A stretch of DNA of 64,000 nt, taken from contig JAQVVF010000005.1 of NCBI GenBank assembly GCA_028699085.1, positions 79-64,078 of the forward strand. Reading direction: 5' to 3'. Origin of the DNA: Patescibacteria group bacterium. GTDB taxonomy: Bacteria; Patescibacteriota; JABMPQ01; JAQVVF01. Of this stretch, positions 1 to 58,905 are shown in pieces. Both the position numbers and the translations under genes were made by a program. The notes under the pieces are model-generated. The model saw only the letters and a list, made by a program, of their open reading frames with translations, searched no databases and had not been told where the DNA came from. Each line of letters begins with the position of its first letter. Within the stretch, counting starts at the first letter, position 1.

Positions 1-63
1 TTCCTTTTTGCCCGCCTGCTTGGGCTTCGCCCCCAAAACTTTTCGGCGGTCGGTCGGCGGGAC
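1..63. repeat. GC-rich element, partial copy truncated by the window edge. It is the reverse complement of 7846..7908, with a 49-bp perfect match.
   Basis: Bases 1-49 (ttcctttttgcccgcctgcttgggcttcgcccccaaaacttttcggcgg) are the exact reverse complement of 7857..7905. About 65% GC, against a ~30% background. Confidence 0.7.
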
Positions 64-150
64 AGAAAACAAAAGAGAAGATAAAAGAGGAATAACGCTT
101 GCCCCACCCACCCGTGCGCGCGTTATGTCGAATGAACTCCCTAATTTTGT

Positions 151-179
151 TTGACTAAATGCTAAAAATTTCATATACT
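151..179 (+). promoter_or_regulatory. Putative sigma70-like promoter of the HTH-hsdR-hsdMS-rloC operon
   Basis: TTGACT at 151-156, a 17-nt spacer, then TATACT at 174-179. Located ~60 nt upstream of the first ATG at 239. Confidence 0.45.
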
Positions 180-238
180 AACTCTTGATAAGTGATGATT
201 TTAATACTATATAACTATAATAGTAAAACTATACGAAT

Positions 239-448
239 ATGTCAAACGAAAAATCCACAATTGGGGACAACATAAGAAAATACCGAAACAAACTCGGTAT
301 TTCTCAAGATGTGCTTTCAAAGAAAGCAGATTTGGCTTTTCATACAATCGCCAAGATTGAAGCTGGCTCTACTCCAAACCCCACAATTGATACAGTCAAA
401 AAAATAGCGGACGCTCTCGGCGTTTCGCTTGATGATTTAATGAAATAA
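239..448 (+). CDS. XRE-family helix-turn-helix transcriptional regulator (R-M controller/C-protein-like)
   Basis: 69 aa. Cro/C1-type HTH (GISQDVLSKKADLAFHTIAKIE). First gene of the R-M operon, 4 nt before hsdR. Confidence 0.8.
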   Translation: MSNEKSTIGDNIRKYRNKLGISQDVLSKKADLAFHTIAKIEAGSTPNPTIDTVKKIADALGVSLDDLMK

Positions 449-452
449 AATT

Positions 453-2966
453 ATGACAAATTCTAAAGAAGCAAAAGCACGAATAAAAATAAACAAATTG
501 CTTGAACAAGCGGGCTGGAGATTTTTTGATAATGAAAAAGGACAAGCAAACATTTCACTTGAACCAAATGTAAAACTTACCCAAAAGGACATTGACGCTT
601 TTGGTGAAGATTTTGAATCTACAAAAAACGGCTTTATTGATTTTTTATTGCTTGATGAAAAAGGTTTCCCACTTGTTATTTTGGAAGCCAAAAAAGAAGA
701 TAAAAATCCACTAGACGGAAAAGAACAAGCGAGAAAATATGCTCATACTGAAAATGCTCGTTTTGTAATTCTTTCAAACGGCAATCTTCATTATTTTTGG
801 GACTTGGAACGAGGCGATCCTGAAATTATCACGGAATTTCCAACGCAAGAATCTTTGAAGCACAGGCAAGATTTCAAACCCGACAATCAGCGTTTAGCAG
901 ACGAAGAAGTCAAAGAGGATTATATTGCGTTTACTCAAAATCCAAATTTCAAAGATGATCCTCGCTATCTCAACAAAGAAACACGAGAACAATATCTTTG
1001 GGACGAAAACTTGCGAATTTTACGCCCATATCAGCTCAAAGCGGTTCACGCTTTGCAAAAATCCGCCGAAGCTGGAAATGATCGTTTTCTTTTTGAAATG
1101 GCAACGGGAACAGGAAAAACGCTTATTTCCGCCGCCATTATTAAACTTTTTTTAAGAACAGGAAACGCAAAAAGAATTTTGTTTTTGGTTGACCGTTTGG
1201 AATTGGAAGATCAAGCACATAAAAACTTTGTCCGCTATTTGAGCAACGATTTTTCCTCTGTTATTTATAAGCAAAATCGTGATGACTGGAAAAAGGCGGA
1301 AGTGGTTATCACAACCGTTCAAAGTCTTTCATCGCAAGACAAATACAAAAAACTATTTTCACCAACTGATTTTGATTTAGTTATTGCTGATGAATCACAC
1401 CGAGCAATCGGCGGAAATTCGCGCGCAGTTTTTGAATACTTTATCGGCTACAAATTGGGCTTAACCGCAACACCGAAAGACTATTTGAAAAATGTTGATC
1501 CACAAAAGTTATCGCAAAAAGACCCGCGAGCTTGGGAAAGACGGCAATTGCTTGATACTTACACGACTTTTGGTTGCAAAAACGGCGAGCCGACTTTCCG
1601 CTTTAGTTTGCTTGACGGCGTGCGAGAAGGATTTTTGATCAATCCTATTGTTTCGGACGCTCGGACAGACATCACAACTGAATTGCTTTCAGAAAAAGGC
1701 TATGCGGTCATGATTGAAGATGAAGAAGGTGGCGAAAGCGAAGAAACATTTTTTCAAAAGGATTTTGAAAAGAAATTCTTTTCCGAAAAGACAAATCGTG
1801 TCTTTTGCCAAACATTTATCGAAAATTCTCTCAAAGACCCGATAAGCGGTGAAATCGGCAAAAGTATTATATTTTGTGTAAGCCAAAAACATGCTTCAAA
1901 AATTACCCAAACACTCAACCAAATGGCGAGCCAGCTTTGGCCCGACAAATACAATTCTGATTTTGCCGTGCAAATAACCTCAAACATTGCCGATAGCCAA
2001 CAATTCCCGATCAATTTTGCCAATAACAATTTAAGCGGGCATACAAAATTTTTAGAAAACTACAAATCAAGCAAAACCAGAATTTGTGTAACTGTCGGAA
2101 TGATGACGACTGGCTATGATTGCCAAGATATTTTGAATCTTGCGCTTATGCGTCCCGTCTTTTCGCCGACTGATTTTATCCAGATCAAAGGACGAGGAAC
2201 AAGAAAATTTACTTTTGAATATACCGACGAATACGGCGAAAAGCACAAAGCAATAAAAGATCATTTCAAATTTTTTGATTTTTTCGCTAACTGCGAATAC
2301 TTTGAAGAAAAATTTGATTATGACGAGGTTTTGCTGTTGCCTATCAAACAAAAAGGAACTGGTGGAGAAGGACCTGTCGGCGTTGATATTGATGAAATAG
2401 AAATTTTCAATCCCGACAAGGTAAAATCCCTCACCGAAATACCCGTTGGAATTGAGGGAATGAAAGTTGATCGAAAACTTTTTGAGAAAGCCCGCGAGGA
2501 ATTACAAAACGATCCCGAAGTAAAAACTGCCGTTGAAAGCGAGCAATGGGAAAAGGCGGTGCAGATAATGCGGAACAAATACGAAGACAAACCGCAATTA
2601 TTCCTAAATCTTGAAAAAATCCGCAAGAGTGAAAATCTTGATCGCCGTATTTCTTGGCGTGAATTTTTAGAGCGAGCTTTCGGCTTGATTGATGTTTTCA
2701 AATCCAAAGACGAGAAATTGGAAGAAGAATGCGAAAAATTTATTTCAATCTACAAACCCGAAAGCAAATATGTTCCACATATCAAAAATTATCTGAAGGC
2801 GTATGTTACGGATTCAGAAATTCGCGACATTATAGATTCCAAAGAATATGGGCGTTTTGCAACCAATCCAAAAGTTACGATGAAAGATTTTCGAGATCTG
2901 AATGGATATCGTGAAGTCGTCCCTGAATATGTAAAGGATTATGTAGCTATTAACGCTTTCATGTAA
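453..2966 (+). CDS. hsdR: Type I restriction enzyme R subunit (HsdR-like endonuclease/helicase)
   Basis: N-terminal HsdR_N/Mrr-like PD-(D/E)xK region (DFLLLDEKG...ILEAKK). SF2 helicase motifs: I ATGTGKT, II DESH, III LTATP. 837 aa. Operon with a methylase. Confidence 0.85.
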   Translation: MTNSKEAKARIKINKLLEQAGWRFFDNEKGQANISLEPNVKLTQKDIDAFGEDFESTKNGFIDFLLLDEKGFPLVILEAKKEDKNPLDGKEQARKYAHTENARFVILSNGNLHYFWDLERGDPEIITEFPTQESLKHRQDFKPDNQRLADEEVKEDYIAFTQNPNFKDDPRYLNKETREQYLWDENLRILRPYQLKAVHALQKSAEAGNDRFLFEMATGTGKTLISAAIIKLFLRTGNAKRILFLVDRLELEDQAHKNFVRYLSNDFSSVIYKQNRDDWKKAEVVITTVQSLSSQDKYKKLFSPTDFDLVIADESHRAIGGNSRAVFEYFIGYKLGLTATPKDYLKNVDPQKLSQKDPRAWERRQLLDTYTTFGCKNGEPTFRFSLLDGVREGFLINPIVSDARTDITTELLSEKGYAVMIEDEEGGESEETFFQKDFEKKFFSEKTNRVFCQTFIENSLKDPISGEIGKSIIFCVSQKHASKITQTLNQMASQLWPDKYNSDFAVQITSNIADSQQFPINFANNNLSGHTKFLENYKSSKTRICVTVGMMTTGYDCQDILNLALMRPVFSPTDFIQIKGRGTRKFTFEYTDEYGEKHKAIKDHFKFFDFFANCEYFEEKFDYDEVLLLPIKQKGTGGEGPVGVDIDEIEIFNPDKVKSLTEIPVGIEGMKVDRKLFEKAREELQNDPEVKTAVESEQWEKAVQIMRNKYEDKPQLFLNLEKIRKSENLDRRISWREFLERAFGLIDVFKSKDEKLEEECEKFISIYKPESKYVPHIKNYLKAYVTDSEIRDIIDSKEYGRFATNPKVTMKDFRDLNGYREVVPEYVKDYVAINAFM

Positions 2967-2971
2967 AAATT

Positions 2972-5428
2972 ATGCTTAATCAAGATACAAAACGAAAAAT
3001 TGACTCTGCCCGTAATATCCTTGTCGGCAAAGTTCCTGATCCAAAAGCACAGGTTGAGCAAATCACGACTGCTCTCATCTATAAATTTATGGATGATATG
3101 GACAAGGAAGCTCAAGAGCTTGGCGGTAAGGCAAGGTATTTTACAAATGGCTACGAAAAATATTCGTGGACAAAATTGATGGATGTAAAACTTGGTGGGC
3201 ATGAACGCTTGAACCTGTATTTTGAAGCAGTGAGCAGTCTTGGTCGCAATCAGCACATGCCACAAATTTTTAGAGATATTTTCGGCGATAAATCATTGCC
3301 ACCCTATCGTGATCCGCAAACCCTCACTCTTTTTTTGAAAGAGATAAATGGCTTTAATTTTGATCACAGCGAAGATTTGGGTGACGCTTATGAATACCTG
3401 CTTAATGTTATTGGCACATCTGGCGAAGCGGGACAATTTCGCACGCCTCGCCAAATTATTGATTTTATAGCAACAGCGGTTGATCCAAAAAAAGGTGATA
3501 CAGTTTGCGATCCTGCCTGCGGAACGGCTGGCTTCTTGATTTCTGCCTACAAACATATTTTAAAACAGCATGACGGTTTAGATGATCCCGAAAAAACAGA
3601 AAAACCGCTTACTCCAGACGAAAAGAAAAATTTGATGAATCATTTTGTCGGCTACGATATTGATCCAGGAATGGTGCGGATTGCTACGGTAAATATGTAT
3701 TTGCACAATTTTCCTGAACCGAAAATTTTTGAATACGACACGCTCACTTATGAGGACAGGTGGGACGAAACTTTTGATGTGATTCTCGCCAATCCGCCAT
3801 TTATGACACCAAAGGGCGGAATTCGTCCGCACAAGCGTTTTAGTATTCAAGCGAACCGATCGGAAGTCCTTTTTGTTGATTATATTGCCGACCATTTGAA
3901 TCTAAACGGCAAGGCGGGCGTGATTGTTCCCGAAGGGATTATTTTCAATAATCAAGTTGCATACAAGAATTTGCGAAAAAAATTAGTGGAAAGTTGTTTG
4001 ATTGCCGTCGTGAGTTTGCCTCAAGGTATTTTTATCAAGCCGGGCGGAAAAGGAAATGTCAAAACTGGTGTTTTGATTTTTGACAAAGAACTGGTCAAAA
4101 AAACCAAAGATGTTTTATTTGTGAAAATCAGCAATGACGGTTTTGATCTTGGCGCGCAAAGACGAGTAATTGATAAAAATGATTTGCCCTTGGCTTTGGG
4201 AATTATCAAAAGATATAAATCTGCGTTGAAAAACGGCAAGGATTTTGAATTAGACGAAGAAGAAAACAAAATTGCGCATATTGTTGCCAAAGAAAAAATT
4301 GCTGAAACTGGCGACTATAATTTAACAAATGAACGATATAAAGAAACGGCTGAGCGAATAAATCAAAAATATCCAATGGTTGAATTGGGCGAGGTTTGTG
4401 AGATGTATCAACCAAAAACAATCACCTCAAAAGAAATAAAATCAGAAGGAAAATATAAGGTTTTTGGGGCAAATGGAGTTATTGGATATTACGACAAGTA
4501 TAATCACGAAGATAGCGAGGTTCTTATCACTTGTCGTGGGGCAACTTGTGGGACACTTAATTTATCTGAGCCAAATTCTTGGATTACTGGAAATGCAATG
4601 GTAATAAAGCCAAAGGATGATCGACTTAGCAAGCAGTTTCTTTTTTACATTCTGAAACAATCAAACTTTAAATCGGTAATTTCTGGATCAGCTCAACCTC
4701 AAATAACAAGGACATCATTATCACCTTTAGAAATACCACTTCCGCCGATTGAAATTCAAAAAGAAATCGTTGAGCAGATTGAGGTCAAGCAAAATGCCAT
4801 AGATCACGCCAAGGCGATTATCCAAAATCTAGAGAGAGAGAGACGCTATTTTGGTCAATCACTTAGAAAATTAGAAGGCGTTGAATGGGTGGAATTGGGT
4901 GAAATTTTTGAAAAAGTGAGTGATCAAATCAATCCACAAAATAATTCTGGTTCAGTCGTCTATATTGGACTAGAAAACATTGAATCAAATTCAGGAAATA
5001 TAGTTGGGGAAATAAATACCGAAATGAAATCAATTAGAAGCATTAAAAATGTATTTAAAGAATCAGATATTCTGTATGGAAAACTAAGACCGAATTTAAA
5101 CAAGGTATGGTTATCAGATCGAAAAGGCATTTGCTCTACTGATATTCTGGTTTTAAGGAAAAAGAAAGAAGAAATGAATCCGTGGCTTTACACAATTATT
5201 TTAAGAAGTGAGGAATTTAACACTGAGGTTTTGAAAGGGCTAAAAGGTGCGCAATTGCCAAGAGTGAGTTTTGAGTACTTATCTAAAATCAAAATCCCAT
5301 ACTTGGTAGAAGAATTACAAGAAAGATATTTGAGCGATTTAAAAAATGAGGAAGAAGCAATAAATGCAAACAAAAAAATGATTGAAATTTACGAACAAAA
5401 AATTTCTGATGTGTTAAGCGAAATATAA
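2972..5428 (+). CDS. Type I R-M methyltransferase fused to specificity subunit (HsdM-HsdS fusion)
   Basis: N-terminal HsdM_N region. AdoMet motif DPACGTAGFL. N6-adenine MTase motif NPPF. The C-terminal ~350 aa contain two HsdS-like target-recognition domains (LITCRGATCG...; YGKLRPNLNKVW...) separated by a conserved EIQKEIVEQIE spacer. Confidence 0.8.
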   Translation: MLNQDTKRKIDSARNILVGKVPDPKAQVEQITTALIYKFMDDMDKEAQELGGKARYFTNGYEKYSWTKLMDVKLGGHERLNLYFEAVSSLGRNQHMPQIFRDIFGDKSLPPYRDPQTLTLFLKEINGFNFDHSEDLGDAYEYLLNVIGTSGEAGQFRTPRQIIDFIATAVDPKKGDTVCDPACGTAGFLISAYKHILKQHDGLDDPEKTEKPLTPDEKKNLMNHFVGYDIDPGMVRIATVNMYLHNFPEPKIFEYDTLTYEDRWDETFDVILANPPFMTPKGGIRPHKRFSIQANRSEVLFVDYIADHLNLNGKAGVIVPEGIIFNNQVAYKNLRKKLVESCLIAVVSLPQGIFIKPGGKGNVKTGVLIFDKELVKKTKDVLFVKISNDGFDLGAQRRVIDKNDLPLALGIIKRYKSALKNGKDFELDEEENKIAHIVAKEKIAETGDYNLTNERYKETAERINQKYPMVELGEVCEMYQPKTITSKEIKSEGKYKVFGANGVIGYYDKYNHEDSEVLITCRGATCGTLNLSEPNSWITGNAMVIKPKDDRLSKQFLFYILKQSNFKSVISGSAQPQITRTSLSPLEIPLPPIEIQKEIVEQIEVKQNAIDHAKAIIQNLERERRYFGQSLRKLEGVEWVELGEIFEKVSDQINPQNNSGSVVYIGLENIESNSGNIVGEINTEMKSIRSIKNVFKESDILYGKLRPNLNKVWLSDRKGICSTDILVLRKKKEEMNPWLYTIILRSEEFNTEVLKGLKGAQLPRVSFEYLSKIKIPYLVEELQERYLSDLKNEEEAINANKKMIEIYEQKISDVLSEI

Positions 5429-5430
5429 CT

Positions 5431-7845
5431 ATGATTAGCAAAATCTCAAAACTCGATAAAGTTGCTAAATTTTCTTCCATTACACAAGAGAAGGTTTTTC
5501 AATATGGTGGGAAAGGACAAAACTGCAATATCGTCTTTGGATTTAATGGATCTGGGAAAACCACTCTATCAAATGCAATTTCATTTTTCGCCGACAACTC
5601 CTTTATTAGTGAGGACGAAAAGAAAGAAATATATGATGATATAAAAAATGGTGATGATTCTATCGTTGAATTAAGCACACAAGGAAATTCAACAATAAAA
5701 TACCCTGCCAACAGCGCACATAGTAAAAATATTTATATTTTCAATTCCAACTTTGTCGCTACTCATGTTTTTAACGGCACGAAAGGAAAATTGAAAAAAT
5801 TTTCGAATATAGGCGGTGAAATTAAAAACAAGGAAATTGATAATATCAATCAGCAAATTGAAGTGCTTGACGAGGAGAAGAAAAAGCTAGAAAACGAAAA
5901 TACAAAATTAGGCGAAAAGCACGAGGAAATTACAAAAACCAGAAGCAAAAGTTTTGGTAAAACTTTGACCGATAAAAACAAAAGACTTTTAACTCAAGAT
6001 TTAACTAATGTTCAATTACCCACAGAAACTATTGAAAATCTTGAAGTAAAACTCGCTACATTTTCTGCCGATTATGAATTGAGCAAAAAACAGACTGAGT
6101 TAAACGCCGACCTTGAAGAATTACGACAACTAAATTTTAGCTCATTGGATTTTGATTTTCCAAAATTAGACGAGCTACTGGCAAAAAATATTCAACAACT
6201 GTCAAAAGAAGTTTTGGAAAAAAAGATAAAGGAAGTGCAAAATCTTTTTTCGGATGACCAACATAAACAAAGTGTTGAGAAATGGTTTAGATTTGGAAAG
6301 GATGTTTTAGAGAACACAAACGGGAATGACAAAAAACACTGCCCGATTTGTAATACAGATATATCAGAGCGAATGAGTTTAATTTTGAAGGATTATCAAG
6401 GATATTTTGATGAAAGTTATGAAAATTTTATTAACGATTTAAAGCTAAAAAGTGATGATATTTCAACGAATACCGTCACTTTAGAACAACACGAGCTAAA
6501 TGCTAGTAAATTAGAAAAACTGCAAATCAAGTATGCAAAACTGCTAGGCGAGCTTTCTTTTGAAAAATTTGATTTTAAAGATATTAAAGCTGACCTTGTT
6601 GAGTTAAAAGAAAGTTTTGTTTCAAAAAATGGGAATGTTCAAGACAATTTTTCAAAACCAAAGAATATAGAAAATAATATTACTGCCCTCAATCTTGCCT
6701 TGACAGCGTTTCAAGAACTCAGGAACAATGTTTTGAAACTTTTAGAATCAAAGAAATTAAACACGCACACTATTGAGGGACAAATCAGACAAACCTATAA
6801 CGAAATTATCCTACTAGAATTTAATCAAACTGATAAACTTGGGGCAATAAAGAAGTACAAAGTCAATAAAAATAGAATTGAGGCTATCATAGACAGCAAA
6901 GAGGCAGGTCTTCCTTTTTGGAAAAACAAATTGCTAGAAGAATTAAGGAAGCTCAAAGCTGAATCAAAGAGTATTTCCAGATATTTAAACAAAATGGGGA
7001 TAGATCATTTTGATATTGATATTAACGAAGAAAAACAAGACGAAAATATTATAATCAAATACAAAAATTCGACAAATGAGAAAAATAAGCTCAAAAATTG
7101 TTTGAGCGACGGCGAAAAAACAGCGTTAGCTTTCGCGTATTTTTTAAGTAAATTTGAAAATGAAATAAACACACCAGAAAAAGTGAAAGATTCTGTTGTG
7201 GTTATAGATGATCCGATTTCTAGCTTGGACGATAACAGACTTTACAGCACCGCTCATTTAATTTGGCGCAACTTTGAGGAAGCAAAGCAACTCATCGTAT
7301 TGAGTCATAACTTTCTTTTCTTGAAGTTTTTCAATTCTTTTTATTGTGGAAAAGCAAACTGTTTATTCTTGGATAGTGAAAAGATTACTGATTTGCCAGA
7401 TGAATTAAAAAACTTTGAAACGCCTTATTTTTATATGCTTAAGACAATCATTGATTTCTTGGATCAGAATAATCAAAATGTAAATTACAATGAAGCGAAA
7501 CGATACTTACCGAATTTCATTAGACGAGTTTTGGAAACATTTCTATCATTTAAGTTTTCAAGAACAGTCAACAAATCTGGCGGACATAGAAGTCCTGGAT
7601 TAAACGAATTTGATGAAAATATTGATAATACTGATATGGATGATAAAATAAAGAAAGAGTTGAAAGATAAAATAGCAGAAATAAACAGAATTGCAGATGC
7701 ACATTCTCACGGAAACGCTCATCACACGCAAGAAAATTTTTATATTTCCGAAACCGATCTCAAAACATTATCCCAAAGTGCAATCTCTGTTATTGAAACA
7801 ATGGATAATTTGCACAAGACTTGTTTTGTTAAAATTGAAAATTAG
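5431..7845 (+). CDS. RloC/PrrC-like ABC-type ATPase with a coiled-coil zinc hook and a putative C-terminal anticodon-nuclease domain
   Basis: 804 aa. Walker A GFNGSGKTT. Long K/E-rich coiled coil with a central CPICNTD (CxxC hook). ABC signature LSDGEK. Walker B/D-loop VVVIDDPISSLD. C-terminal region with R/H-rich motifs (NFIRRVLETF; AHSHGNAHH). Located immediately after hsd genes (restriction-linked ORF). Confidence 0.7.
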   Translation: MISKISKLDKVAKFSSITQEKVFQYGGKGQNCNIVFGFNGSGKTTLSNAISFFADNSFISEDEKKEIYDDIKNGDDSIVELSTQGNSTIKYPANSAHSKNIYIFNSNFVATHVFNGTKGKLKKFSNIGGEIKNKEIDNINQQIEVLDEEKKKLENENTKLGEKHEEITKTRSKSFGKTLTDKNKRLLTQDLTNVQLPTETIENLEVKLATFSADYELSKKQTELNADLEELRQLNFSSLDFDFPKLDELLAKNIQQLSKEVLEKKIKEVQNLFSDDQHKQSVEKWFRFGKDVLENTNGNDKKHCPICNTDISERMSLILKDYQGYFDESYENFINDLKLKSDDISTNTVTLEQHELNASKLEKLQIKYAKLLGELSFEKFDFKDIKADLVELKESFVSKNGNVQDNFSKPKNIENNITALNLALTAFQELRNNVLKLLESKKLNTHTIEGQIRQTYNEIILLEFNQTDKLGAIKKYKVNKNRIEAIIDSKEAGLPFWKNKLLEELRKLKAESKSISRYLNKMGIDHFDIDINEEKQDENIIIKYKNSTNEKNKLKNCLSDGEKTALAFAYFLSKFENEINTPEKVKDSVVVIDDPISSLDDNRLYSTAHLIWRNFEEAKQLIVLSHNFLFLKFFNSFYCGKANCLFLDSEKITDLPDELKNFETPYFYMLKTIIDFLDQNNQNVNYNEAKRYLPNFIRRVLETFLSFKFSRTVNKSGGHRSPGLNEFDENIDNTDMDDKIKKELKDKIAEINRIADAHSHGNAHHTQENFYISETDLKTLSQSAISVIETMDNLHKTCFVKIEN

Positions 7846-8215
7846 TCCCGCCGTCCCGCCGAAAAGTTTTGGGGGCGAAGCCCAAGCAGGCGGGCAAAAA
7901 GGAAGGGGGTTGGGGGGAAGGAATTTTTGCCCGCCTGCTTCCGTTCCCGTTCCGTTTGAGCAAAGGAAAAGCGGAAGGGGGGTTTGGGGGGAATTCCGCC
8001 ACGCCCGAGCGAAATCAAATTGTGGACAGCCCCGCCGTCCTGCTCGTTAAGAGCAGAACCCCGCACAAAAGTTTTCTTTTCCTTTTAGAAGAAAAAAATC
8101 GGCGCGCGCAAATCAAAAATTGTGAAGAAAACTTTTTTGCGGGGTGGCGAGGTTTCCGAGCGACGGCGGGGCTGGCTTCCTTATTGGGGGTTTTGCTCAA
8201 AAAAAGTTCGAACAT
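7846..8215. repeat. GC-rich (~60% GC) hairpin-dense element. Possible MITE/att-like element or structured RNA.
   Basis: Perfect 15-bp stem at 7886..7938 (gcaggcgggcaaaaa/tttttgcccgcctgc). Long imperfect hairpin 8025..8067 pairing with 8130..8176. 7857..7905 is the reverse complement of 1..49. No plausible ORF. Confidence 0.6.
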
Positions 8216-8255
8216 CAATCAAAAAACACCGTTTTTTATAAAAAAATATTTTTAT

Positions 8256-8738
8256 ATGGAAAATAACAAACAATCTACACAATGTTGTCCAAAATTTAAT
8301 CCAGAACTTTGGGATAATAAAATTATTACTTGGAATAACAAAAAATTTATCAAAGATAAAGTTTTCACCTTGTTCCACATGCCAATTAATTTTGGTTCAG
8401 TTATGAAAAGAATAACTGAAAAGGTAGAAAAAAATAAAGTTAATATTCCTGGTTATCTTTGCCTATCAGATCATACTTCAAAATGGAATATGGATGTTTA
8501 TTTAGCAGTTGATAAAGAAGTACCTGATGCTGAAAATATTACTTTAAATGGAAAATACTTAAGTAAAGTTTATGAAGGAAATTTTAAAGATACAGGCAAA
8601 TGGAGTGAAGATTTTAAAAATTTTGCTAAAGAAAAAGGTTTTAATATCAAAAAATGGTATATGTGGTATACGACTTGTCCAAAATGCGCCAAAAAATATG
8701 GCAAGAATTATGTAGCAATAATTGCCCAAATTGGCTAA
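8256..8738 (+). CDS. Hypothetical Cys-containing protein (CCPKF..., CPKCAKKYG zinc-ribbon-like end)
   Basis: 160-aa ORF starting at the ATG at 8256. The longer 7869 start lies in a non-coding GC-rich repeat. No recognised family. Confidence 0.45.
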   Translation: MENNKQSTQCCPKFNPELWDNKIITWNNKKFIKDKVFTLFHMPINFGSVMKRITEKVEKNKVNIPGYLCLSDHTSKWNMDVYLAVDKEVPDAENITLNGKYLSKVYEGNFKDTGKWSEDFKNFAKEKGFNIKKWYMWYTTCPKCAKKYGKNYVAIIAQIG

Positions 8739-10278: not shown

Positions 10279-11595
10279 ATGTCTCACAAAGAAAAAATTT
10301 TAGATATTATAAAACAATTAAAAAATTTAAAATCAAAGAATCAACCTGTTTCTTTTTCCAAAAAAACAGTTTCTCATTTTGTTCCATCAGCACACACATC
10401 AAGAGAAAAACTGCCCAAATTAGATTTAAAGTCTTTAGATTCTTTACTTAATATTGATCCAAAAAAAAATATTGGTATTGCTGAACCTGGTCTTACTTTC
10501 TCGGAATTATTAATAGAATCATTGAAATATAATTTAATTCCAGCTGTTGTCCCAGAATTAAAGACCATTACTTTAGGAGGTGCAATTTCCGGATGTTCAA
10601 TAGAATCAATGTCCTACAAGTATGGAGGATTCCATGATAGTTGTTTAGAATATGAAATAATCACTAGCAATGGAGAAATCATTATCTGCTCAAAAGATAA
10701 TAACCAAGATATTTTTGATATGATTCATGGTTCATATGGAACATTAGGAATAATTTCCAAAATAAAATTTAAATTATTGCCTGCCAAACCATATGTTCAT
10801 TTACTTTACAAAAAATATAATAATTTTGAGCAGTATTGGAATGATTTGCAAAAATACTGCCAGGAAAAACAATTTGATTTTATTGATGGAATAATTTATA
10901 ACACAAATTTATTTATTCTTTGTTTAGGCAATATGGAAGATTCTGCTCCTTTTACATCGAAATATGATTGGCTAAAAGTCTTTTATAAAGCTACTGCCAA
11001 GAAAGAAGAAGATTATTTTAAAATTTACGATTATTTTTATCGTTATGATGCTGATTGCCATTGGCTATCAAAAAAAATTCCGTTAATGGAAACATTTTTT
11101 GGCAGATTATTTTTTGGAAAGTTTGTTTTAGGATCAAGCAACTTAATAAAACTCTCCAAAAAGTTTGGGCCAAAAATTAATAAAGGCAAGAAACCAGATG
11201 TTGTTGTTGATGTTTTTATTCCTAACAATAATTTTCCACAATTTTATAATTGGTATAAAAAAGATTTTAATTTTTTTCCACTATGGATTGTGCCATACAG
11301 AGCTCCAAAAATCTACCCTTGGGTTTCTAACAGTTTAGCTAGCAAAATTGAAGATGCTTTTTTCATTGATGCTGCAATCTATGGTAAAGAAAACAATGAA
11401 AAAAATATTGATTATGCTAAAATGCTTGAAGATAAAGTTTTTGAACTTAATGGCATTAAGACTCTAATTTCACAAAACCATTATTCTAGAACAAGATTCT
11501 GGGAAATTTATAATTTTGAAAATTTTAAAAAAGTTAAACAAAAAACAGATCCAAATAATTTGTTTAATGATTTATATAAAAAAATGGTTAGATAG
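10279..11595 (+). CDS. FAD-binding oxidoreductase (FAD_binding_4 / ALO- or DprE1-like)
   Basis: PCMH-type FAD-binding domain (LGGAISGCS...GSYGTLGII). The C-terminal ...DPNNLFN end is typical of FAD-linked oxidases. Confidence 0.7.
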   Translation: MSHKEKILDIIKQLKNLKSKNQPVSFSKKTVSHFVPSAHTSREKLPKLDLKSLDSLLNIDPKKNIGIAEPGLTFSELLIESLKYNLIPAVVPELKTITLGGAISGCSIESMSYKYGGFHDSCLEYEIITSNGEIIICSKDNNQDIFDMIHGSYGTLGIISKIKFKLLPAKPYVHLLYKKYNNFEQYWNDLQKYCQEKQFDFIDGIIYNTNLFILCLGNMEDSAPFTSKYDWLKVFYKATAKKEEDYFKIYDYFYRYDADCHWLSKKIPLMETFFGRLFFGKFVLGSSNLIKLSKKFGPKINKGKKPDVVVDVFIPNNNFPQFYNWYKKDFNFFPLWIVPYRAPKIYPWVSNSLASKIEDAFFIDAAIYGKENNEKNIDYAKMLEDKVFELNGIKTLISQNHYSRTRFWEIYNFENFKKVKQKTDPNNLFNDLYKKMVR

Positions 11596-12786: not shown

Positions 12787-12814
12787 GTTTTTTATTAAAA
12801 TAATTTTATTTAAA

Positions 12815-12887
12815 CGGGCCGGACGGGACTTGAACCCGCGACCTTCTCCGTGACAGGGAGACGTGAACTCCGCTTCACTACCGGCCC
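12815..12887 (-). tRNA. tRNA-Asp (GTC)
   Basis: Cloverleaf with anticodon loop CTGTCAC, GGTTCAAGTCC T-arm and 7-bp acceptor stem GGGCCGG/CCGGCCC. No encoded CCA. Confidence 0.85.
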
Positions 12888-12927
12888 AAATTTATTTCTC
12901 AATGGTTTGCATCACAGATTATATCAA

Positions 12928-13001
12928 TAGCAGGGGACGGATTCGAACCGTCGACCGCCACTTTATGAGTGTGGTGCTCTAACCAACTGAGCTACCCTGC
13001 C
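12928..13001 (-). tRNA. tRNA-Met (CAT), elongator type. Could alternatively be tRNA-Ile2 (lysidine).
   Basis: Anticodon loop CTCATAA, D-arm GTAGCTCAGTTGGTTAGAGC and T-arm GGTTCGAATCC. The anticodon stem lacks the three G-C pairs of an initiator. Confidence 0.75.
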
Positions 13002-13090
13002 TCAAAACAAATAACTAAATTATAAATTAAAAATGACAAAATTTAGAATCGTAAATTTTTCATTTATAATTTAGTTATTTTTAATTCAAA

Positions 13091-13164
13091 ATTGCGGGGG
13101 GCGGATTTGAACCGCCGACCTTCAGGTTATGAGCCTGACGAGCTTCCAAGCTGCTCTACCCCGC
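13091..13164 (-). tRNA. Initiator tRNA-fMet (CAT)
   Basis: The sequence CGCGGGGTAGAGCAGC...GGCTCATAACC...GGTTCAAATCCGCCCCCCGCAA closely resembles bacterial tRNAfMet, including a C1:A72 mismatch. Confidence 0.85.
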
Positions 13165-13605
13165 GATAATACGTATATTATATATTAAACAATAAAAAAA
13201 GCAAGTTCACTTGCTCCTATCGATTATTGATGCAATATAAAATTATTTAGGTCCGAAAAAATATTTTAATAACGGCAAAATAGCATAAAAAATAAATGCC
13301 AGAATTGCCACTAAAATAAGATAAACTCTCAAAATTTTTGCTTCTTCTAACATTTGATCCAAAGTCTAATTACATAAATCAAAGTAAACAACAAAACAAT
13401 TGTCGTGCATGCAAAAAATAATAGTAGTTTTTCTGTTAATTCCATGACTTTAGTGATTAGTAAATAAGTAATTAGTAAGTAGTAAGTCATCTATATTATA
13501 AATAATATTTAAAAAGATGGCAACCTTTTAATTAATGATAATTCTTGTTAAACTGATAGAGAGCGATAACTAGTTACTAGTCACTTATTTACTAATTACA
13601 AAAAT

Positions 13606-26971: not shown

Positions 26972-27092
26972 TTTCAAATTTAAAATGCAAAGATAAAAAT
27001 GCAAAATTACAATTTAAAATTAAAAATTTATTTAATTTTAAATTTTGCACTGTCATTTTACATTTTTATTTTTAAATTTTAATTTTATTATT

Positions 27093-33639: not shown

Positions 33640-34665
33640 ATGGCAACCGACAATATGCCTCAGATGTTTTTGGAAGATGTTGGTAGTTTGGTTCACTCGC
33701 ATGACGGTCAAAATGTTTGGTTGATCAAGGATTTAGATCAGCGCGAGGAATTTGAAGAATACATGTTGCCTCATGATATTTACGTCGTTGATTTTCCTGC
33801 GCTAGGAGTTGGCCAAAGATTTCTGTTAAGTCGTCATCTTTGCGGACCTGATAAGTTTTTCATGCTTCAGCAGATTGGTCATGCAATGGCAAAAATCTGC
33901 AAAAGAACGGGAATGTTTGATGGTGAAAAGCTGGCACAATTCATTATTCTTTACGGTGGTGAAGCCTACAACATGCATTTCTGTCAGCCACCTTTGGTTG
34001 ATGGAATCATGATTGATTCGACTTATATCAAATATGAACGAGTAGAGGATAGTACTCAGCAAAATGGTTTTAGGATCGAAAAACTCGCATTCTCCGGAAA
34101 ATGGTGGCAGGACAATATCTGGCTTTGTCTTGAAGAATGCGTTGCTTCTGGCAGTACAGTTGCGCATTTTGCAAAAGAAGGATTCGTAAATCATAAACCC
34201 AAGAAGCTTTTTATTTTTCCAGCTTGCGGTAGTTTCTTTGGCATTCAAGGAATCTATCAGGCTTGTTTGGAAAACGGAGTCGAGTTTGTTCCAGTATTCA
34301 ACTCTGCCTTGATTGATGTTGCGCCTGAAGGCTTGAAGCTTCCATATACTGATCTTGGCCTGCGTCCTCGTACGATCATGACTCGTGAATTCTGTGCTGC
34401 CGCGCGCCACCGCTATCAAGACACAAGCCTTTGTTTTGTGGGTGATATTGGAGATTCAATTCATCGTACCAAAAGATATATTATGGAAACTCTTGATGAC
34501 ATGCGATTGATTGGCTTTGATTTTGAAAGAGAGGATTGGAGCCGCTGGAATCCCAATGTTTTCTCCGAATATTTTCGCCAAAAGCTTGCAGAAGTATTTC
34601 CAGAAACGAGTCAACATTTTGAAACATTCTTATTCCGCGATTCTAGATTTCTGCTTTCCAAATAA
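33640..34665 (+). CDS. Hypothetical protein with a PRTase-like motif, probably horizontally acquired
   Basis: 341 aa. AAAGGAGGA SD. ~42% GC. IWLCLEECVASGST resembles the type I phosphoribosyltransferase signature but does not match it exactly. Confidence 0.45.
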   Translation: MATDNMPQMFLEDVGSLVHSHDGQNVWLIKDLDQREEFEEYMLPHDIYVVDFPALGVGQRFLLSRHLCGPDKFFMLQQIGHAMAKICKRTGMFDGEKLAQFIILYGGEAYNMHFCQPPLVDGIMIDSTYIKYERVEDSTQQNGFRIEKLAFSGKWWQDNIWLCLEECVASGSTVAHFAKEGFVNHKPKKLFIFPACGSFFGIQGIYQACLENGVEFVPVFNSALIDVAPEGLKLPYTDLGLRPRTIMTREFCAAARHRYQDTSLCFVGDIGDSIHRTKRYIMETLDDMRLIGFDFEREDWSRWNPNVFSEYFRQKLAEVFPETSQHFETFLFRDSRFLLSK

Positions 34666-34712
34666 TTTGTATACTATTATAAAACCGACTCTCATCGGTT
34701 TTTTCTTGGTTA

Positions 34713-35660
34713 TTATTTTAAAAAATTTTTAACTAATTTGTTTGCCTCATTATATTTTTCAATCCATTTTATTTTTTTATCTCTTTTAAACCAGCTTTCT
34801 TGCCGCCTAGCATATTGATGAGTATGAAATTTAATATTCTGAATAATTTCTGTTAAGATTTTTTTATCTTTAATTTTATTTAGCTTACCTTTAAATTCTC
34901 CATAACCAATTCCAGACATTGCTGGCAATTTCCAGGAATATTTTTTATTCAATTTCTTTAATTCTCTAACCAATCCGTTTTTAATCATTTGATCAACTCT
35001 TTTATCGATTCTTTTATATAATTTTTCGCGATCTACTTTAATACCAATTTGCAAAAAATTATATTTCTGTATACCTTTTTGTTGAAATTCAGAAAATGTT
35101 TTACCAGTCTTAATGCAAACTTCTAGAGCTCTAATAATTCTTCTTTTATTTTGTCGCTGTACAAAACTGGAAGCGTTATGATCAAGCTTCATTAATCTTG
35201 TCCATAATTTTTCAATATCCTGTTTTTCAAGATTTTTTCGAAATTCAAAATCAGGTGCGACTCTTGGAATCGTCAAGTTATCAACTAAAGCTTGAATGTA
35301 TAATCCTGTTCCGCCAACCAATATTGGCGTTTTGCCGCGTTTCAAAATATCATCAATAATTTTTTCAGCCTGTTCTTTAAATTCCGCAACAGAATAATTT
35401 TGATTAGGTTTAATAATATCAATCATATAGTGGTCAACATCGTCACTTACGACGATTTTTTGATTTTTGCCTTGCAACTTTTTAATTTTTACTTTTGACT
35501 TTTTAATTTTCGCAGTGCCGATATTCATGCCTTTATAGAATTGCCTTGAATCACAAGAAATAATCTCGCCATTATATTTTTTGGCTAATTTAATACCCAT
35601 TCCGGATTTACCGGAAGCTGTTGGGCCTAAAATGACGATAATTTTTGGTAATATTGACAT
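34713..35660 (-). CDS. miaA: tRNA dimethylallyltransferase
   Basis: P-loop GPTASGKS, ISCDSRQFYKGMNIGTAK. 315 aa. Confidence 0.9.
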   Translation of the reverse strand: MSILPKIIVILGPTASGKSGMGIKLAKKYNGEIISCDSRQFYKGMNIGTAKIKKSKVKIKKLQGKNQKIVVSDDVDHYMIDIIKPNQNYSVAEFKEQAEKIIDDILKRGKTPILVGGTGLYIQALVDNLTIPRVAPDFEFRKNLEKQDIEKLWTRLMKLDHNASSFVQRQNKRRIIRALEVCIKTGKTFSEFQQKGIQKYNFLQIGIKVDREKLYKRIDKRVDQMIKNGLVRELKKLNKKYSWKLPAMSGIGYGEFKGKLNKIKDKKILTEIIQNIKFHTHQYARRQESWFKRDKKIKWIEKYNEANKLVKNFLK

Positions 35661-58755: not shown

Positions 58756-58757
58756 TC

Positions 58758-58905
58758 GAATTTCTAATTTTCAATTTCTAATTTCTATTGAATATTTAAT
58801 TTCTAATTTTCAAACCTAAAGTTTAGAAAAATTAGGATGAATTTTGTTTAGAAATTAATTATTTAAAATTTAATAGAAATTTAAAATTAGAAATTAGAAA
58901 TTTCA
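58758..58905. repeat. AT-rich imperfect inverted repeat built from TTCTAATT/AATTAGAA boxes around a central ctaaagtttag palindrome
   Basis: Left arm 58758..58812 is ~75% identical to the reverse complement of right arm 58851..58905. Intergenic, directly upstream of ftsW/rodA. Confidence 0.5.

What the first reader, a model, noticed from the sequence alone, without database searches (positions are those of the whole stretch)
1..8215. Type I R-M / RloC defence operon bracketed by inverted GC-rich hairpin elements
Four genes sit in one tight operon (gaps of 2-5 nt): an HTH controller, hsdR, a fused hsdM-hsdS and an RloC-like anticodon-nuclease candidate. The operon lies between two GC-rich segments (~60% GC, against a ~30% background). 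Bases 1..49 are the exact reverse complement of 7857..7905, so the two copies face the cassette in inverted orientation. The copy at the window start is truncated by the window edge. This looks like a self-contained, possibly mobile, defence island in a reduced genome.
Basis: partly seen in the sequence, partly recalled or inferred. Interest (0 to 1): 0.8.

Follow-up and report, generated by a model that had tools for sequence, protein, structure and literature searches.

The report
Recombinase-borne defence island with inverted arms
The restriction-modification/RloC operon is the cargo of a widespread mobile island that a large serine recombinase appears to insert at serine-tRNA genes, and the two GC-rich inverted elements are the island's conserved 387-base end modules, whose tips look like the recombinase's docking sites.

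Summary
Four genes sit 2-5 nt apart: HTH, HsdR, an HsdM-HsdS fusion and an RloC-like ATPase.

The GC-rich segments are not simple hairpins. They are two inverted copies of a 387-nt "arm" (right copy 7845-8231). The left copy is cut by the window edge after 63 nt.

The same arm occurs in 86 stretches of species-representative genomes. Most are Patescibacteria, but other phyla are labelled too, with host GC from 0.30 to 0.60. It brackets different cargo, mostly R-M types I, II and III and defence ATPases, and never a transposase.

In relatives, one arm abuts a 517-aa large serine recombinase whose 3' end overlaps a tRNA-Ser gene. The other arm abuts host DNA.

Every arm ends GTTCGAA-N16-CCG(CCA), which mimics the tRNA-Ser 3' end. 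The GTTCGAA motif sits 23 nt from CCG in arms and 18 nt in tRNA-Ser. That 5-bp shift is the one described between serine-integrase attP and attB.

The cassette is therefore mobile but not self-contained. The recombinase, if present here, lies left of the window, and I could not see it. The role of the arms' conserved central hairpins and of the inverted duplication remains unexplained.

The parts
1..63 (-). Inner end of the left (near) arm, cut by the window edge. The arm sense runs leftward, inner to outer.
   Evidence: 1-49 is the exact reverse complement of 7856-7904. The match continues to 63 after a 3-nt indel. Full-length left arms are present in the homologous cassettes L009, L010 and L003.
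64..150 (.). Conserved spacer between the arm and the promoters.
   Evidence: 89-95% identical across the loci that carry the HTH module.
151..179 (+). Promoter-like site TTGACT-17-TATACT facing the HTH operon.
   Evidence: 10 of 12 matches. Both hexamers are conserved in nearly all of the 15 aligned loci (one has CATACT). This is a consensus match only; function is inferred.
214..224 (.). Palindrome ACTATAATAGT, a candidate operator for the HTH protein.
   Evidence: Read directly from the sequence. Retained in most of the 15 aligned loci; three have ACTATCATAGT and one lacks the region. It overlaps the -10 of the outward promoter. Binding is inferred.
217..245 (-). Outward-facing promoter-like site TTGACA-17-TATTAT. 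It reads through the left arm in the arm sense, toward the position the recombinase gene occupies in relatives.
   Evidence: 11 of 12 matches; the -35 overlaps the HTH start codon. Conserved in most aligned loci, with TATGAT as the -10 in some. No sigma-70-like site lies between the arm end and the recombinase start in L038. Function is inferred.
239..448 (+). 69-aa Xre/HTH_3 regulator, the invariant first gene of the cargo module.
   Evidence: Pfam HTH_3 E 1e-15; PADLOC Control_protein E 7e-12. The exact protein is in 472 blocks of the collection, ahead of unrelated cargo.
453..2966 (+). hsdR, type I restriction subunit (EcoAI/FtnUII-like).
   Evidence: ResIII, HSDR_N and SWI2_SNF2; PADLOC REase_I E 5e-56; best NCBIfam match restrict_EcoAI at 243.7 bits, below the 550-bit cut-off. 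Homologues of 80-95% identity occur in many phyla.
2972..5428 (+). Fused hsdM-hsdS: methyltransferase plus two target-recognition domains.
   Evidence: N6_Mtase E 9e-55 at residues 134-461; Methylase_S in two stretches from 467; PADLOC MTase_I and Specificity_I. The TRD part (3945-5427) is not conserved with L009 or L010.
5431..7845 (+). RloC-like ABC-ATPase / anticodon-nuclease candidate.
   Evidence: AAA_13 E 1e-59; PADLOC PDC-S06 and PrrC. Motifs: Walker A 37, CPIC 304, LSDGE 558, VVVIDDP 589, R698-x3-E702, S759-H760. Compared with the definition in PMC2610378.
7845..7970 (+). Right (far) arm, module A. Contains a perfect 17-bp stem (7884-7900 / 7924-7940) around a G-rich loop.
   Evidence: Sharp inner boundary at GTCCCGCC, whose first base is the last base of the rloC stop codon. 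Nearly invariant in the copies that have it. Stem.
7971..8231 (+). Right (far) arm, module B. Nested GC-rich helices (8027-8039 / 8162-8174 and 8058-8078 / 8125-8145) plus the conserved outer ~65 nt.
   Evidence: Many copies carry only this 261-nt module, at ~95% identity. Two helices are 99.3% paired in 42 distinct copies, with 7 pairs showing compensatory changes; slid controls give 47-59%. G.T versus A.C bias.
8206..8231 (+). Inferred P-type half-site of the serine recombinase: GTTCGAACATCAATCAAAAAACACCG. The island end and host junction fall at 8231/8232.
   Evidence: All 106 arm copies end with this motif, GTTCGAA lying 23 nt before the terminal CCG. Occupied tRNA-Ser genes have it 18 nt before CCG. 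That is the 5-bp attP/attB shift of PMC3783163. Flanks diverge right after it.

Best explanation
Window 1-8231 is the cargo end of a genomic island of a family that, by its architecture, is moved by a large serine recombinase (LSR) and inserted at the 3' end of tRNA-Ser genes.

The full architecture, seen in relatives, is: tRNA-Ser | LSR gene (its 3' end overlapping the tRNA) | short inverted 3' fragment of the LSR gene (C') | near arm | HTH regulator and cargo | far arm | host DNA.

The two GC-rich elements are the near and far arms. They are inverted copies of one 261-388-nt module. The outer ~26 nt of the module (GTTCGAA-N16-CCG) is the recombinase's P-type half-site and imitates the tRNA-Ser T-loop and acceptor end.

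Proposed steps:
1. Integration exchanges strands within or next to CCG(CCA). The far-arm tip plus host DNA then forms attR. The tRNA-Ser end plus the LSR 3' end forms attL.
2. The near arm plus C' is an internal, inverted, attP-like copy.
3. Cargo is swapped between islands by recombination in the conserved arms and HTH module.
4. The HTH protein probably sets the balance between its own operon and an outward promoter that reads through the near arm toward the LSR gene.

In this window the cargo is a type I R-M system with a fused M-S subunit plus an RloC-like anticodon nuclease. RloC would act as a back-up when restriction is blocked.

Shown: the repeat, the genes, the family-wide architecture, the motif spacing and the structure conservation. 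Inferred: LSR catalysis at these sites, the presence of an LSR left of this window, the regulation, and the cargo-swap route.
For: Repeat and genes.

Arm boundaries: they are sharp, and both arms are present in L009, L010, L020, L067, L072, L002 and L098.

Distribution: 86 stretches of species-representative genomes, host GC 0.30-0.60.

Cargo: 80 representative inner-side proteins are dominated by R-M types I, II, III and IIG and by AAA_13, AAA_21 and AAA_15. No transposase family appears.

Recombinase: an LSR of 92-97% amino-acid identity lies just outside one arm in 13 further loci, with only its first 20 codons visible in L009. It is preceded by the inverted C' fragment. Its domains are Resolvase, Recombinase and Zn_ribbon_recom.

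tRNA overlap: the LSR 3' end overlaps tRNA-Ser genes with gct, tga and gga anticodons.

Junction sequences: attL reads tRNA...CTCCG-CCA-AGT. The internal junction reads arm...CACCG-CCA-AGT. attR reads arm...CACCG-CC(A)-host, often followed by a terminator hairpin.

Motif spacing: GTTCGAA to CCG is 23 nt in 106 arms and 18 nt in 7 tRNA-Ser genes. This matches the 5-bp ZD-motif shift between attP and attB in PMC3783163.

Additional support:
- A second, 26%-identical LSR also abuts an arm tip in L095.
- L098, on a 1.06-Mb contig, shows two islands at adjacent tRNA-Ser genes. The more distant LSR (59% identity) is paired with a more diverged arm.
- Window 1-4404 is 91% identical to L009, which has C' and the LSR start to the left of its arm.
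- The promoters and the palindrome are conserved.
Against: - No LSR, C' or tRNA-Ser is visible for this island. The window starts inside the left arm, tblastn of the LSR against the window finds nothing, and the window's own contig could not be extended.
- The window's right junction reads CACCG|TTTTTT. It lacks the CCA seen in about two thirds of copies, so the target here was not a canonical tRNA-Ser end, or the junction was remodelled.
- No empty site or excised circle was found.
- Several relatives are LSR-less or decayed (L001, L090, L093, L102), so this copy may be immobile.
- A serine-integrase half-site needs only ~25 nt. The model does not explain 387-nt arms, their conserved helices or the internal attP-like copy.
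- Phylum labels of some MAG contigs may reflect mis-binning.
Confidence: 0.7

Rival explanations
1. The arms are mainly RNA elements. They would be transcribed outward from the cassette on both sides and act as insulators or terminators, mRNA-stabilising 3' structures, or a regulatory leader for the recombinase. Only their last ~26 nt would serve recombination. This competes with the DNA-site or homology-handle role for the bulk of the arm, not with the island model itself.
For: - The helices are kept by compensatory changes: 7 pairs, 99.3% of cells paired, against 47-59% in slid controls.
- One-sided changes give G.T and almost never A.C in the inner-to-outer sense: 314 versus 3 over all predicted pairs, and about 59 versus 1 in the two strong helices.
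- The operon reads into the right arm in that sense, and a conserved outward promoter (245-217) reads into the left arm in the same sense.
- Host terminator hairpins often follow the arm tip.
- No promoter-like site lies between the arm and the LSR start.
Against: - No Rfam family matches.
- The window's right-arm region folds better than shuffles on both strands (z -4.0 and -5.3), so folding alone does not pick a strand.
- The central hairpins are deleted in the L102 'mini-arm'.
- One hairpin module is inverted in L002-type arms.
- No canonical stem plus T-run terminator is found in the arm.
- Single-stranded DNA would show the same G.T tolerance.
- Part of the G.T excess comes from pairs that RNAalifold chose on this strand.
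Confidence: 0.3
2. The inverted arms make the cassette an invertible or exchangeable segment. The LSR, or homologous recombination, would flip or replace the DNA between the two att-bearing arms, as in phase-variable invertons or engineered recombinase-mediated cassette exchange.
For: - Long inverted repeats, 96-100% identical within a cassette.
- An intact attP-like junction lies inside the island, inverted relative to attR.
- The arms are mosaics of two haplotypes (L053).
- The same HTH and arms occur with different cargo, including at one and the same locus (L001 versus L007).
Against: - Orientation is fixed. The HTH end is next to the LSR-proximal arm in every evaluable island (L002, L009, L066, both islands of L098).
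- The operon carries its own promoter, so flipping would not switch it.
- Serine integrases recombine attP with attB, or attL with attR, but not attP with attR (PMC3783163).
Confidence: 0.12
3. The arms are terminal inverted repeats of a non-autonomous DDE-type transposon (a mobile insertion cassette or a cargo-carrying MITE), moved in trans by a transposase encoded elsewhere.
For: Long terminal inverted repeats with sharp ends, no recombinase between them, many genomic contexts, and frequent contig breaks at the repeats.
Against: - No target-site duplication at any two-armed copy (flanks).
- No transposase family among the inner-side proteins.
- One arm is regularly joined to an LSR gene and a tRNA-Ser gene.
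- The arm tip mimics a tRNA end, with the serine-integrase 5-bp spacing rule.
Confidence: 0.04
4. The GC-rich sequence is a housekeeping non-coding RNA gene, or the repeat at the window start is an assembly artefact.
For: The repeat touches the window edge. Many copies lie at contig ends. The sequence is structured and GC-rich in an AT-rich genome.
Against: - Both arms are assembled inside long contigs, including 1.06-Mb and 660-kb contigs.
- Copies come in inverted pairs around accessory cargo and next to unrelated flanks.
- Near-identical sequence occurs in hosts of 30-60% GC.
- No Rfam match.
Confidence: 0.02

Closest known systems
tRNA-targeting genomic islands and prophages that use large serine integrases (phiC31, Bxb1, A118 type; PLE Int of Vibrio cholerae)
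   Same: An LSR with Resolvase, Recombinase and Zn-ribbon domains sits at one end. Integration is at a defined short core. The attP-type and attB-type half-sites share a motif shifted by 5 bp. The cargo includes anti-phage genes.
   Different: The LSR gene reads into the tRNA gene. The island carries a second, inverted, attP-like junction plus 261-388-nt structured arms bracketing the cargo. No recombination directionality factor has been identified. Near-identical copies occur across phyla.
Tycheposons of Prochlorococcus (bioRxiv 10.1101/2020.12.28.424599)
   Same: Small cargo-carrying integrative elements in streamlined genomes. They have a site-specific integrase at one end, tRNA gene targets (including tRNA-Ser), tandem accretion at the target and modular cargo.
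   Different: Tycheposons mostly use their own tyrosine-recombinase lineage, often carry replication genes, and have no long inverted arms. Here the recombinase is an LSR and the cargo is mainly defence.
SCC-type cassette chromosomes (CcrAB large serine recombinases) with defence cargo (PMC11470126)
   Same: LSR-mobilised chromosomal cassettes that carry and exchange R-M and other defence systems and accrete in tandem at one att site. This comparison rests on the paper's title and abstract and on my own knowledge.
   Different: The SCC target is rlmH, not tRNA-Ser. The recombinase genes lie inside the cassette. The ends are short repeats, not 387-nt inverted arms.
PrrC / RloC anticodon nucleases linked to type I R-M (PMC2610378, PMC3458546)
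   Same: A type I R-M locus with an embedded or adjacent ABC-ATPase/ACNase gene. The window protein has the RloC hallmarks, at positions close to those of Geobacillus RloC.
   Different: RloC is reported as rarely linked to R-M; here it is the last gene of the R-M operon. The Glu-to-His spacing is X57, against the reported X36-52. Activity is untested.
Mobile insertion cassettes, MITEs and REP/REPIN elements
   Same: Recombinase-less DNA bracketed by inverted repeats. GC-rich palindromic modules that can stabilise transcripts.
   Different: No target-site duplications, and no DDE or RAYT partner. The ends are tied to an LSR and to tRNA-Ser.

Membership tests
Type I restriction-modification system | HsdR with a helicase/ResIII motor and an HSDR_N nuclease region | tested here: met
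   ResIII E 2e-39, HSDR_N and HSDR_N_2 E ~2e-6, PADLOC REase_I E 5e-56. The NCBIfam EcoAI-type model scores 243.7 bits, below its 550-bit cut-off, so the subtype assignment is loose.
Type I restriction-modification system | HsdM N6-adenine methyltransferase and an HsdS with two target-recognition domains | tested here: met
   N6_Mtase E 9e-55. Methylase_S in two stretches in the same 818-aa protein. PADLOC MTase_I E 8e-91 and Specificity_I. M and S are fused.
RloC anticodon nuclease | ABC-ATPase motifs (Walker A, signature, Walker B/D-loop) | tested here: met
   GFNGSGKT at 37, LSDGE at 558, VVVIDDP at 589. AAA_13 E 1e-59 over residues 31-768.
RloC anticodon nuclease | Coiled-coil insert with a CxxC zinc hook inside the ATPase domain | tested here: met
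   CPIC at 304, between Walker A (37) and the signature motif (558); Geobacillus RloC has C291. Coiled-coil propensity of the flanks was not computed.
RloC anticodon nuclease | C-terminal Arg-X3-Glu-X36-52-His triad, with Ser often before His | tested here: inconclusive
   R698-x3-E702 and S759-H760 are present, but the spacing is X57, just outside the published range. No solved homologue. Nuclease activity is not testable here.
R-M controller (C) protein | Small HTH upstream of, and dedicated to, an R-M operon, with a C-box operator | tested here: inconclusive
   HTH_3 and PADLOC Control_protein E 7e-12. A palindrome ACTATAATAGT lies upstream. However, the identical protein also heads non-R-M cargo.
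Large-serine-recombinase integrative island | LSR gene at one end of the element | not testable with these tools
   For this window the left side is cut and could not be extended. In relatives the feature is met in 13 further loci besides L002.
Large-serine-recombinase integrative island | attP-type and attB-type half-sites sharing a motif shifted 5 bp toward the centre in attB | tested here: met
   GTTCGAA to CCG is 23 nt in 106 arm copies, including the window's. It is 18 nt in 7 occupied tRNA-Ser genes. The rule comes from PMC3783163.
Large-serine-recombinase integrative island | attL and attR share the crossover core; an intact target gene at one junction and host DNA at the other | tested here: met
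   In relatives, CCG(CCA) is shared by the tRNA-Ser/LSR junction and the far-arm/host junction. In the window only attR is visible (CACCG|TTTTTT).
Large-serine-recombinase integrative island | Empty attB or an excised circle in related DNA | tested here: inconclusive
   Two metagenome scans for window-specific junctions found nothing. Unoccupied tRNA-Ser genes with the same 3' end exist in L088, L078 and L023, but none is the same locus with and without an island.
DDE transposon / MITE / mobile insertion cassette | Target-site duplication flanking the inverted repeats, and a cognate transposase in autonomous copies | tested here: not met
   The flanks of two-armed copies show no duplication. 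No transposase family occurs among 80 inner-side proteins.
Integron gene cassette | attC sites of 57-141 nt in direct orientation, promoterless cassettes, an IntI tyrosine recombinase | tested here: not met
   The arms are inverted, 261-388 nt long, and the cassette has its own promoter and regulator. The associated recombinase is a serine recombinase.
Any Rfam RNA family | Covariance-model score at or above the gathering threshold | tested here: not met
   Only three tRNAs reach the threshold in the window. The permissive scans of 7700-8400 and 1-300 gave only chance-level microRNA and snoRNA matches.
Tycheposon | Tycheposon-lineage tyrosine recombinase and hallmark replication genes | not tested
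   The recombinase here is an LSR. A minority of tycheposons also use LSRs, but the hallmark gene set was not compared.

The most novel reading that the evidence does not exclude
The arms form a dedicated cassette-exchange platform. Two inverted, att-bearing, structure-conserved modules, together with an invariant regulator gene, would let one serine-recombinase island family plug in and swap defence operons at a fixed junction. The same family would carry them between Patescibacteria (many of which live attached to other bacteria) and unrelated phyla. This would be a natural analogue of recombinase-mediated cassette exchange, or an integron-like system built on a serine integrase. The arm would also act as a single-stranded (RNA or DNA) functional element.
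Probability: 0.22. Interest if true: 0.85.

Novelty: new variant of a known kind. Interest (0 to 1): 0.62.

Why it matters
It would explain how bacteria with very small genomes, poor in classical mobile elements, acquire and exchange restriction and abortive-infection systems. One compact recombinase-driven island family would be doing it, apparently shared across phyla.

It also yields a natural serine integrase with predicted attP (arm tip plus LSR 3' end) and attB (tRNA-Ser 3' end). This kind of enzyme and site pair is sought for genome engineering.

The long, structure-conserved inverted arms and the internal attP-like copy are not accounted for by current models of serine-integrase elements, so they are a concrete, testable puzzle.

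On the practical side, the arms and the tRNA-Ser repeats break assemblies, so such islands are probably under-counted in metagenome-assembled genomes.

Tried and rejected
Searches that gave nothing:
- Rfam at gathering and permissive thresholds found nothing for either arm.
- ARAGORN calls no tRNA or tmRNA in the arms.
- Exact-protein look-ups of the window's HsdR and of the flanking hydrolase found no contig.
- Two metagenome scans found nothing, one for the window-specific right junction and one for the left arm/spacer junction. The window could therefore not be extended leftward, and no empty site was found.
- The arm has no match in the phage or plasmid collections. It has a single hit in IMG/VR.
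- No solved structure is related to the RloC-like protein.
- Literature searches for this architecture in Patescibacteria/CPR found nothing specific. One paper reports a type I R-M island with an 'ATP-dependent endonuclease' in a Patescibacteria MAG but does not mention a recombinase, a tRNA or repeats.

Ideas considered and dropped:
- DDE transposon or MITE: no duplications and no transposase.
- Integron attC: wrong orientation, size and recombinase.
- Housekeeping RNA: not syntenic, and paired around accessory genes.
- Assembly artefact: both arms are assembled inside long contigs.
- The antisense ORF running from C' into the arm (...WRCFLIDVRTFFEQNPQ*) as a reason for tip conservation: the genuine LSR tail is encoded by antisense tRNA and differs, so a coding constraint is unlikely.
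- Classical terminator in the arm: the scan found none.

Full report
**1. Checking the observation**

The window is AT-rich (GC 0.326 overall). After a 3-nt indel the match continues to position 63. No other repeat in the window comes close: the next-longest inverted repeats are AT-rich at 70-84%.

The right GC-rich block runs from 7845 to 8231. Its GC is 0.535, against 0.354 for the operon and 0.32 for the rest of the window.

Four ORFs lie 4, 5 and 2 nt apart:
- a 69-aa HTH_3 protein;
- an HsdR with ResIII and HSDR_N domains;
- an 818-aa protein with N6_Mtase followed by two Methylase_S stretches;
- an 804-aa AAA_13 protein that PADLOC files under PDC-S06 and, more weakly, PrrC.

**2. The RloC call**

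The paper that defined RloC lists three features (PMC2610378): ABC-ATPase motifs, a coiled-coil insert with a CxxC zinc hook, and a C-terminal Arg-X3-Glu-X36-52-His triad, often with Ser before His. In Geobacillus RloC these fall at C291, R692, E696 and H737.

The window protein has Walker A at 37, CPIC at 304, LSDGE at 558, VVVIDDP at 589, R698-x3-E702 and S759-H760. Only the Glu-to-His spacing (X57) falls slightly outside the published range. No solved structure is related. I accept 'RloC-like' at motif level. Activity is untested.

**3. What the GC-rich elements are**

The exact 69-aa HTH protein is on record in 472 blocks of the assembly collection. In ten loci fetched around it, host GC ranges from 0.34 to 0.55. 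In most of them the next gene starts after the same 4-nt gap. That next gene differs widely:
- an EcoRI-type methylase with GmrSD/HNH;
- HsdM with HsdR;
- a GrpE/Hsp70-like set;
- AlaRS-like genes and sulfatases;
- type I R-M with either AAA_13 or a SEC-C/NERD protein.

BLAST of the window's ends against these loci showed that the right GC-rich block is one unit with sharp ends. Its inner end is GTCCCGCC and its outer end is ...CAAAAAACACCG. In L009, L010 and L003 it is present full-length in inverted orientation on both sides of the cassette. The two arms of one cassette are 100% (L010), 99.75% (L009) or about 96% (L072) identical.

The window therefore starts inside the left arm. I call the unit an 'arm'. 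It has two parts:
- Module A (window 7845-7970) is nearly invariant where present.
- Module B (7971-8231) is often present alone, at ~95% identity. Its outermost ~65 nt is the part retained even in decayed copies.

**4. Distribution and cargo**

An invariant 25-mer of the arm occurs in 86 stretches of the one-genome-per-species collection. Most are Patescibacteria of many classes. Some contigs are labelled Gammaproteobacteria, Bdellovibrionota, Fidelibacterota, Nitrospirota, Elusimicrobiota and others. Some of these labels may be binning errors, but a 2.14-Mb Fidelibacterota chromosome and a 660-kb contig are among them.

Many hits sit at contig ends, as expected for a repeat that breaks assemblies. 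The arm is absent from the cultured phage and plasmid collections and has one hit in IMG/VR.

Cassettes with both arms carry:
- type III R-M (L020, L072);
- NgoPII endonuclease, a C5 methylase and SMODS (L067);
- type I/IIG R-M with T5orf172 (L044);
- two large unknown proteins (L025).

A survey of 80 representative proteins from the inner side of arms is dominated by R-M of types I, II, III and IIG and by AAA_13, AAA_21 and AAA_15 ATPases. No transposase family appears.

**5. The link to a recombinase and to tRNA-Ser**

I listed the DNA just beyond the outer tip of 103 arm copies. About two thirds continue with CCA, and many of those are followed by an unrelated terminator-like hairpin. That is how a tRNA gene ends.

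About 25 copies continue instead with a conserved sequence. It is a 3'-terminal fragment (aa ~437-501, 'C'') of a large serine recombinase gene. About 33 nt further on lies a full-length 517-aa LSR gene in the opposite orientation. This gene is 92-97% identical in L020, L022, L029, L030, L033, L034, L038, L059, L063, L066, L067, L089 and L094. Only its first 20 codons are visible in L009, at a contig edge. Its domains are Resolvase, Recombinase and Zn_ribbon_recom.

The 3' end of the full-length gene overlaps, antisense, a genuine tRNA-Ser gene with anticodon gct, tga or gga.

The complete architecture is therefore: tRNA-Ser | LSR | C' | near arm | (HTH) cargo | far arm | host.

L098, from a 1.06-Mb contig, shows it cleanly. 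Two islands sit at two adjacent tRNA-Ser genes. The second island runs from the far-arm tip at 6610 to tRNA-Ser(gct) at 11498-11587. The three junctions in that island read:
- attL: tRNA...CTCTCCG-CCA-AGTATCAC;
- internal: arm...GACCG-CCA-AGTATCAC, identical to attL for more than 50 nt beyond CCA;
- attR: arm...GACCG-CC|TTCGCC (host).

The first island in L098 has a 59%-identical LSR and a correspondingly diverged near arm that is still recognisably homologous. I saw no far arm there.

Five of six evaluable two-armed cassettes have the LSR (or, in L010, the start of the C' flank) next to one arm. In every evaluable case the HTH end of the cargo is the end proximal to the LSR.

**6. Evidence that the arm tip is the recombinase's site**

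The arm tip and the tRNA-Ser 3' end share GTTCGAA and CCG(CCA). GTTCGAA starts 23 nt before the terminal CCG in all 106 arm copies scanned. It starts 18 nt before CCG in all seven occupied tRNA-Ser genes.

For serine integrases, the zinc-ribbon-domain motif lies 5 bp closer to the centre in attB than in attP (PMC3783163). The arm tip therefore behaves as a P-type half-site and the tRNA end as a B-type half-site of one enzyme. This is an inference from spacing, not a demonstration.

A second, only 26%-identical LSR also ends exactly at an arm tip in L095. L033 has tandem arm-C' units. In L001-type loci the LSR body is missing, and the two inverted LSR-3' copies are fused between the tRNA-Ser gene and a 44-nt arm remnant. 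These are the marks of accretion and decay at an att site.

**7. What this means for the window**

Window 1-4404 is 91% identical to L009. Windows 1-3945 and 5427-8231 are 84% and 79% identical to L010. The HsdS target-recognition part (3945-5427) is not conserved. The window's island is thus a mosaic member of this family.

Its right arm ends at G8231 and is followed by TTTTTTATAAAA..., 24 nt before a 160-aa Bact_hydrolase gene. There is no CCA, so this insertion is not at a canonical tRNA-Ser end, or the junction has changed since.

The LSR cannot be seen. The window begins 63 nt into the near arm, no LSR-like sequence exists elsewhere in the 64 kb, and I could not extend the contig. Whether this copy is still mobile is unknown.

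**8. Regulation (inferred)**

Two promoter-like sites lie between the near arm and the HTH gene:
- TTGACT-17-TATACT (151-179), facing the operon;
- TTGACA-17-TATTAT (245-217, 11 of 12 matches), facing outward into the arm. Its -35 overlaps the HTH start codon.

Both sites, and a palindrome ACTATAATAGT (214-224) that overlaps the outward -10, are conserved in most of 15 loci. In relatives the outward transcript would run through the near arm in the arm's sense and on into the LSR gene. I found no promoter-like site of its own for that gene. The HTH protein may therefore control both the cargo and the recombinase, as phage repressors do.

**9. The unexplained part: the body of the arm**

Two nested helices of module B are paired in 99.3% of cells across 42 distinct copies. 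Seven pairs changed on both sides, and slid controls pair at 47-59%. Most of that covariation comes from two major haplotypes, so it represents few independent events.

One-sided changes are almost all G.T rather than A.C in the inner-to-outer sense. The counts are 314 versus 3 over all predicted pairs and about 59 versus 1 in the two strong helices. This points to a single-stranded form of that strand, either RNA (both arms would be transcribed in that sense) or DNA.

Several observations argue against a strict requirement:
- the central hairpins are missing from a 'mini-arm' (inner 65 plus outer 67 nt) in L102;
- one hairpin module is inverted in L002-type arms;
- no Rfam family matches.

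Nor do I have an explanation for the internal inverted attP-like junction. Inverted rather than direct homology would at least avoid looping out the cargo. About 390 nt of arm on one side, and arm plus HTH module on the other, would be adequate homology for swapping cargo by recombination. That fits the mosaic arms and the identical HTH ahead of different cargo, but it is conjecture.

**10. Comparison with known systems and verdict**

The closest known kinds are serine-integrase islands and prophages at tRNA genes, tycheposons and SCC-type cassette chromosomes that carry defence systems. I found no description of this family or of its arms.

I rate it a new variant of a known kind. However, the element is not self-contained, and the bracketing sequences are recombinase-linked end modules rather than generic hairpins.

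Noticed in passing
window 12814-13166 (-): A cluster of three tRNA genes (Asp-GTC, Met-CAT, Met-CAT). There is no tRNA-Ser anywhere in the 64 kb.
   Followed up: partly
window 39948-40463: Four tandem ~156-nt coding repeats with a GDVD...DE-like motif. They look like a repeat-domain surface protein.
   Followed up: no
window ~34000-34800: Cumulative GC skew rises steadily to about 34.5 kb and then falls to the end of the window. This may be a replication-related strand switch.
   Followed up: no
window 58756-58902; also 13449-13603 and 26973-27082: AT-rich imperfect inverted repeats of 48-57 nt per arm, 71-82% complementary. Nature unknown.
   Followed up: no
window 38401-38700: A C-rich stretch with GC 0.44 and GC skew -0.545 in an otherwise AT-rich region. 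It may encode a Pro/Thr-rich linker.
   Followed up: no
window 3945-5427: The HsdS target-recognition part of the fused M-S gene is the one segment of the cassette with no DNA similarity to the otherwise 79-91% identical L009 and L010 cassettes. DNA specificity has been swapped.
   Followed up: partly
L102 1573-17411 (Fidelibacterota chromosome OZ252221.1): Decayed islands lie in tandem next to three tRNA-Ser genes, with a 'mini-arm' made of the inner 65 and outer 67 nt only. An HsdR-HsdMS-AAA_13 operon is flanked by arm pieces in direct orientation. No LSR lies within 22 kb.
   Followed up: partly
L098 18140-21596: TraC-like, TraG-like P-loop and PrgI-like genes lie about 7 kb from the two islands in a 1.06-Mb Patescibacteria contig. 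They could be a transfer apparatus relevant to island spread.
   Followed up: no
L100 18346-22520: In a 1.2-Mb contig the same HsdR-HsdMS-AAA_13 module, here without the HTH or arms, sits next to a 1754-aa protein with a Csx12 domain.
   Followed up: no
protein P0134: An 87%-identical HsdR is annotated as a protein of the mussel Potamilus streckersoni. This is probably bacterial contamination of a eukaryotic assembly.
   Followed up: no
LSR hits: Many clusters of this recombinase are known only from contigs of about 1.8-2.1 kb, roughly the gene alone. Assemblies evidently break at the arm and at the tRNA-Ser repeats, so these islands are under-assembled in MAGs.
   Followed up: no
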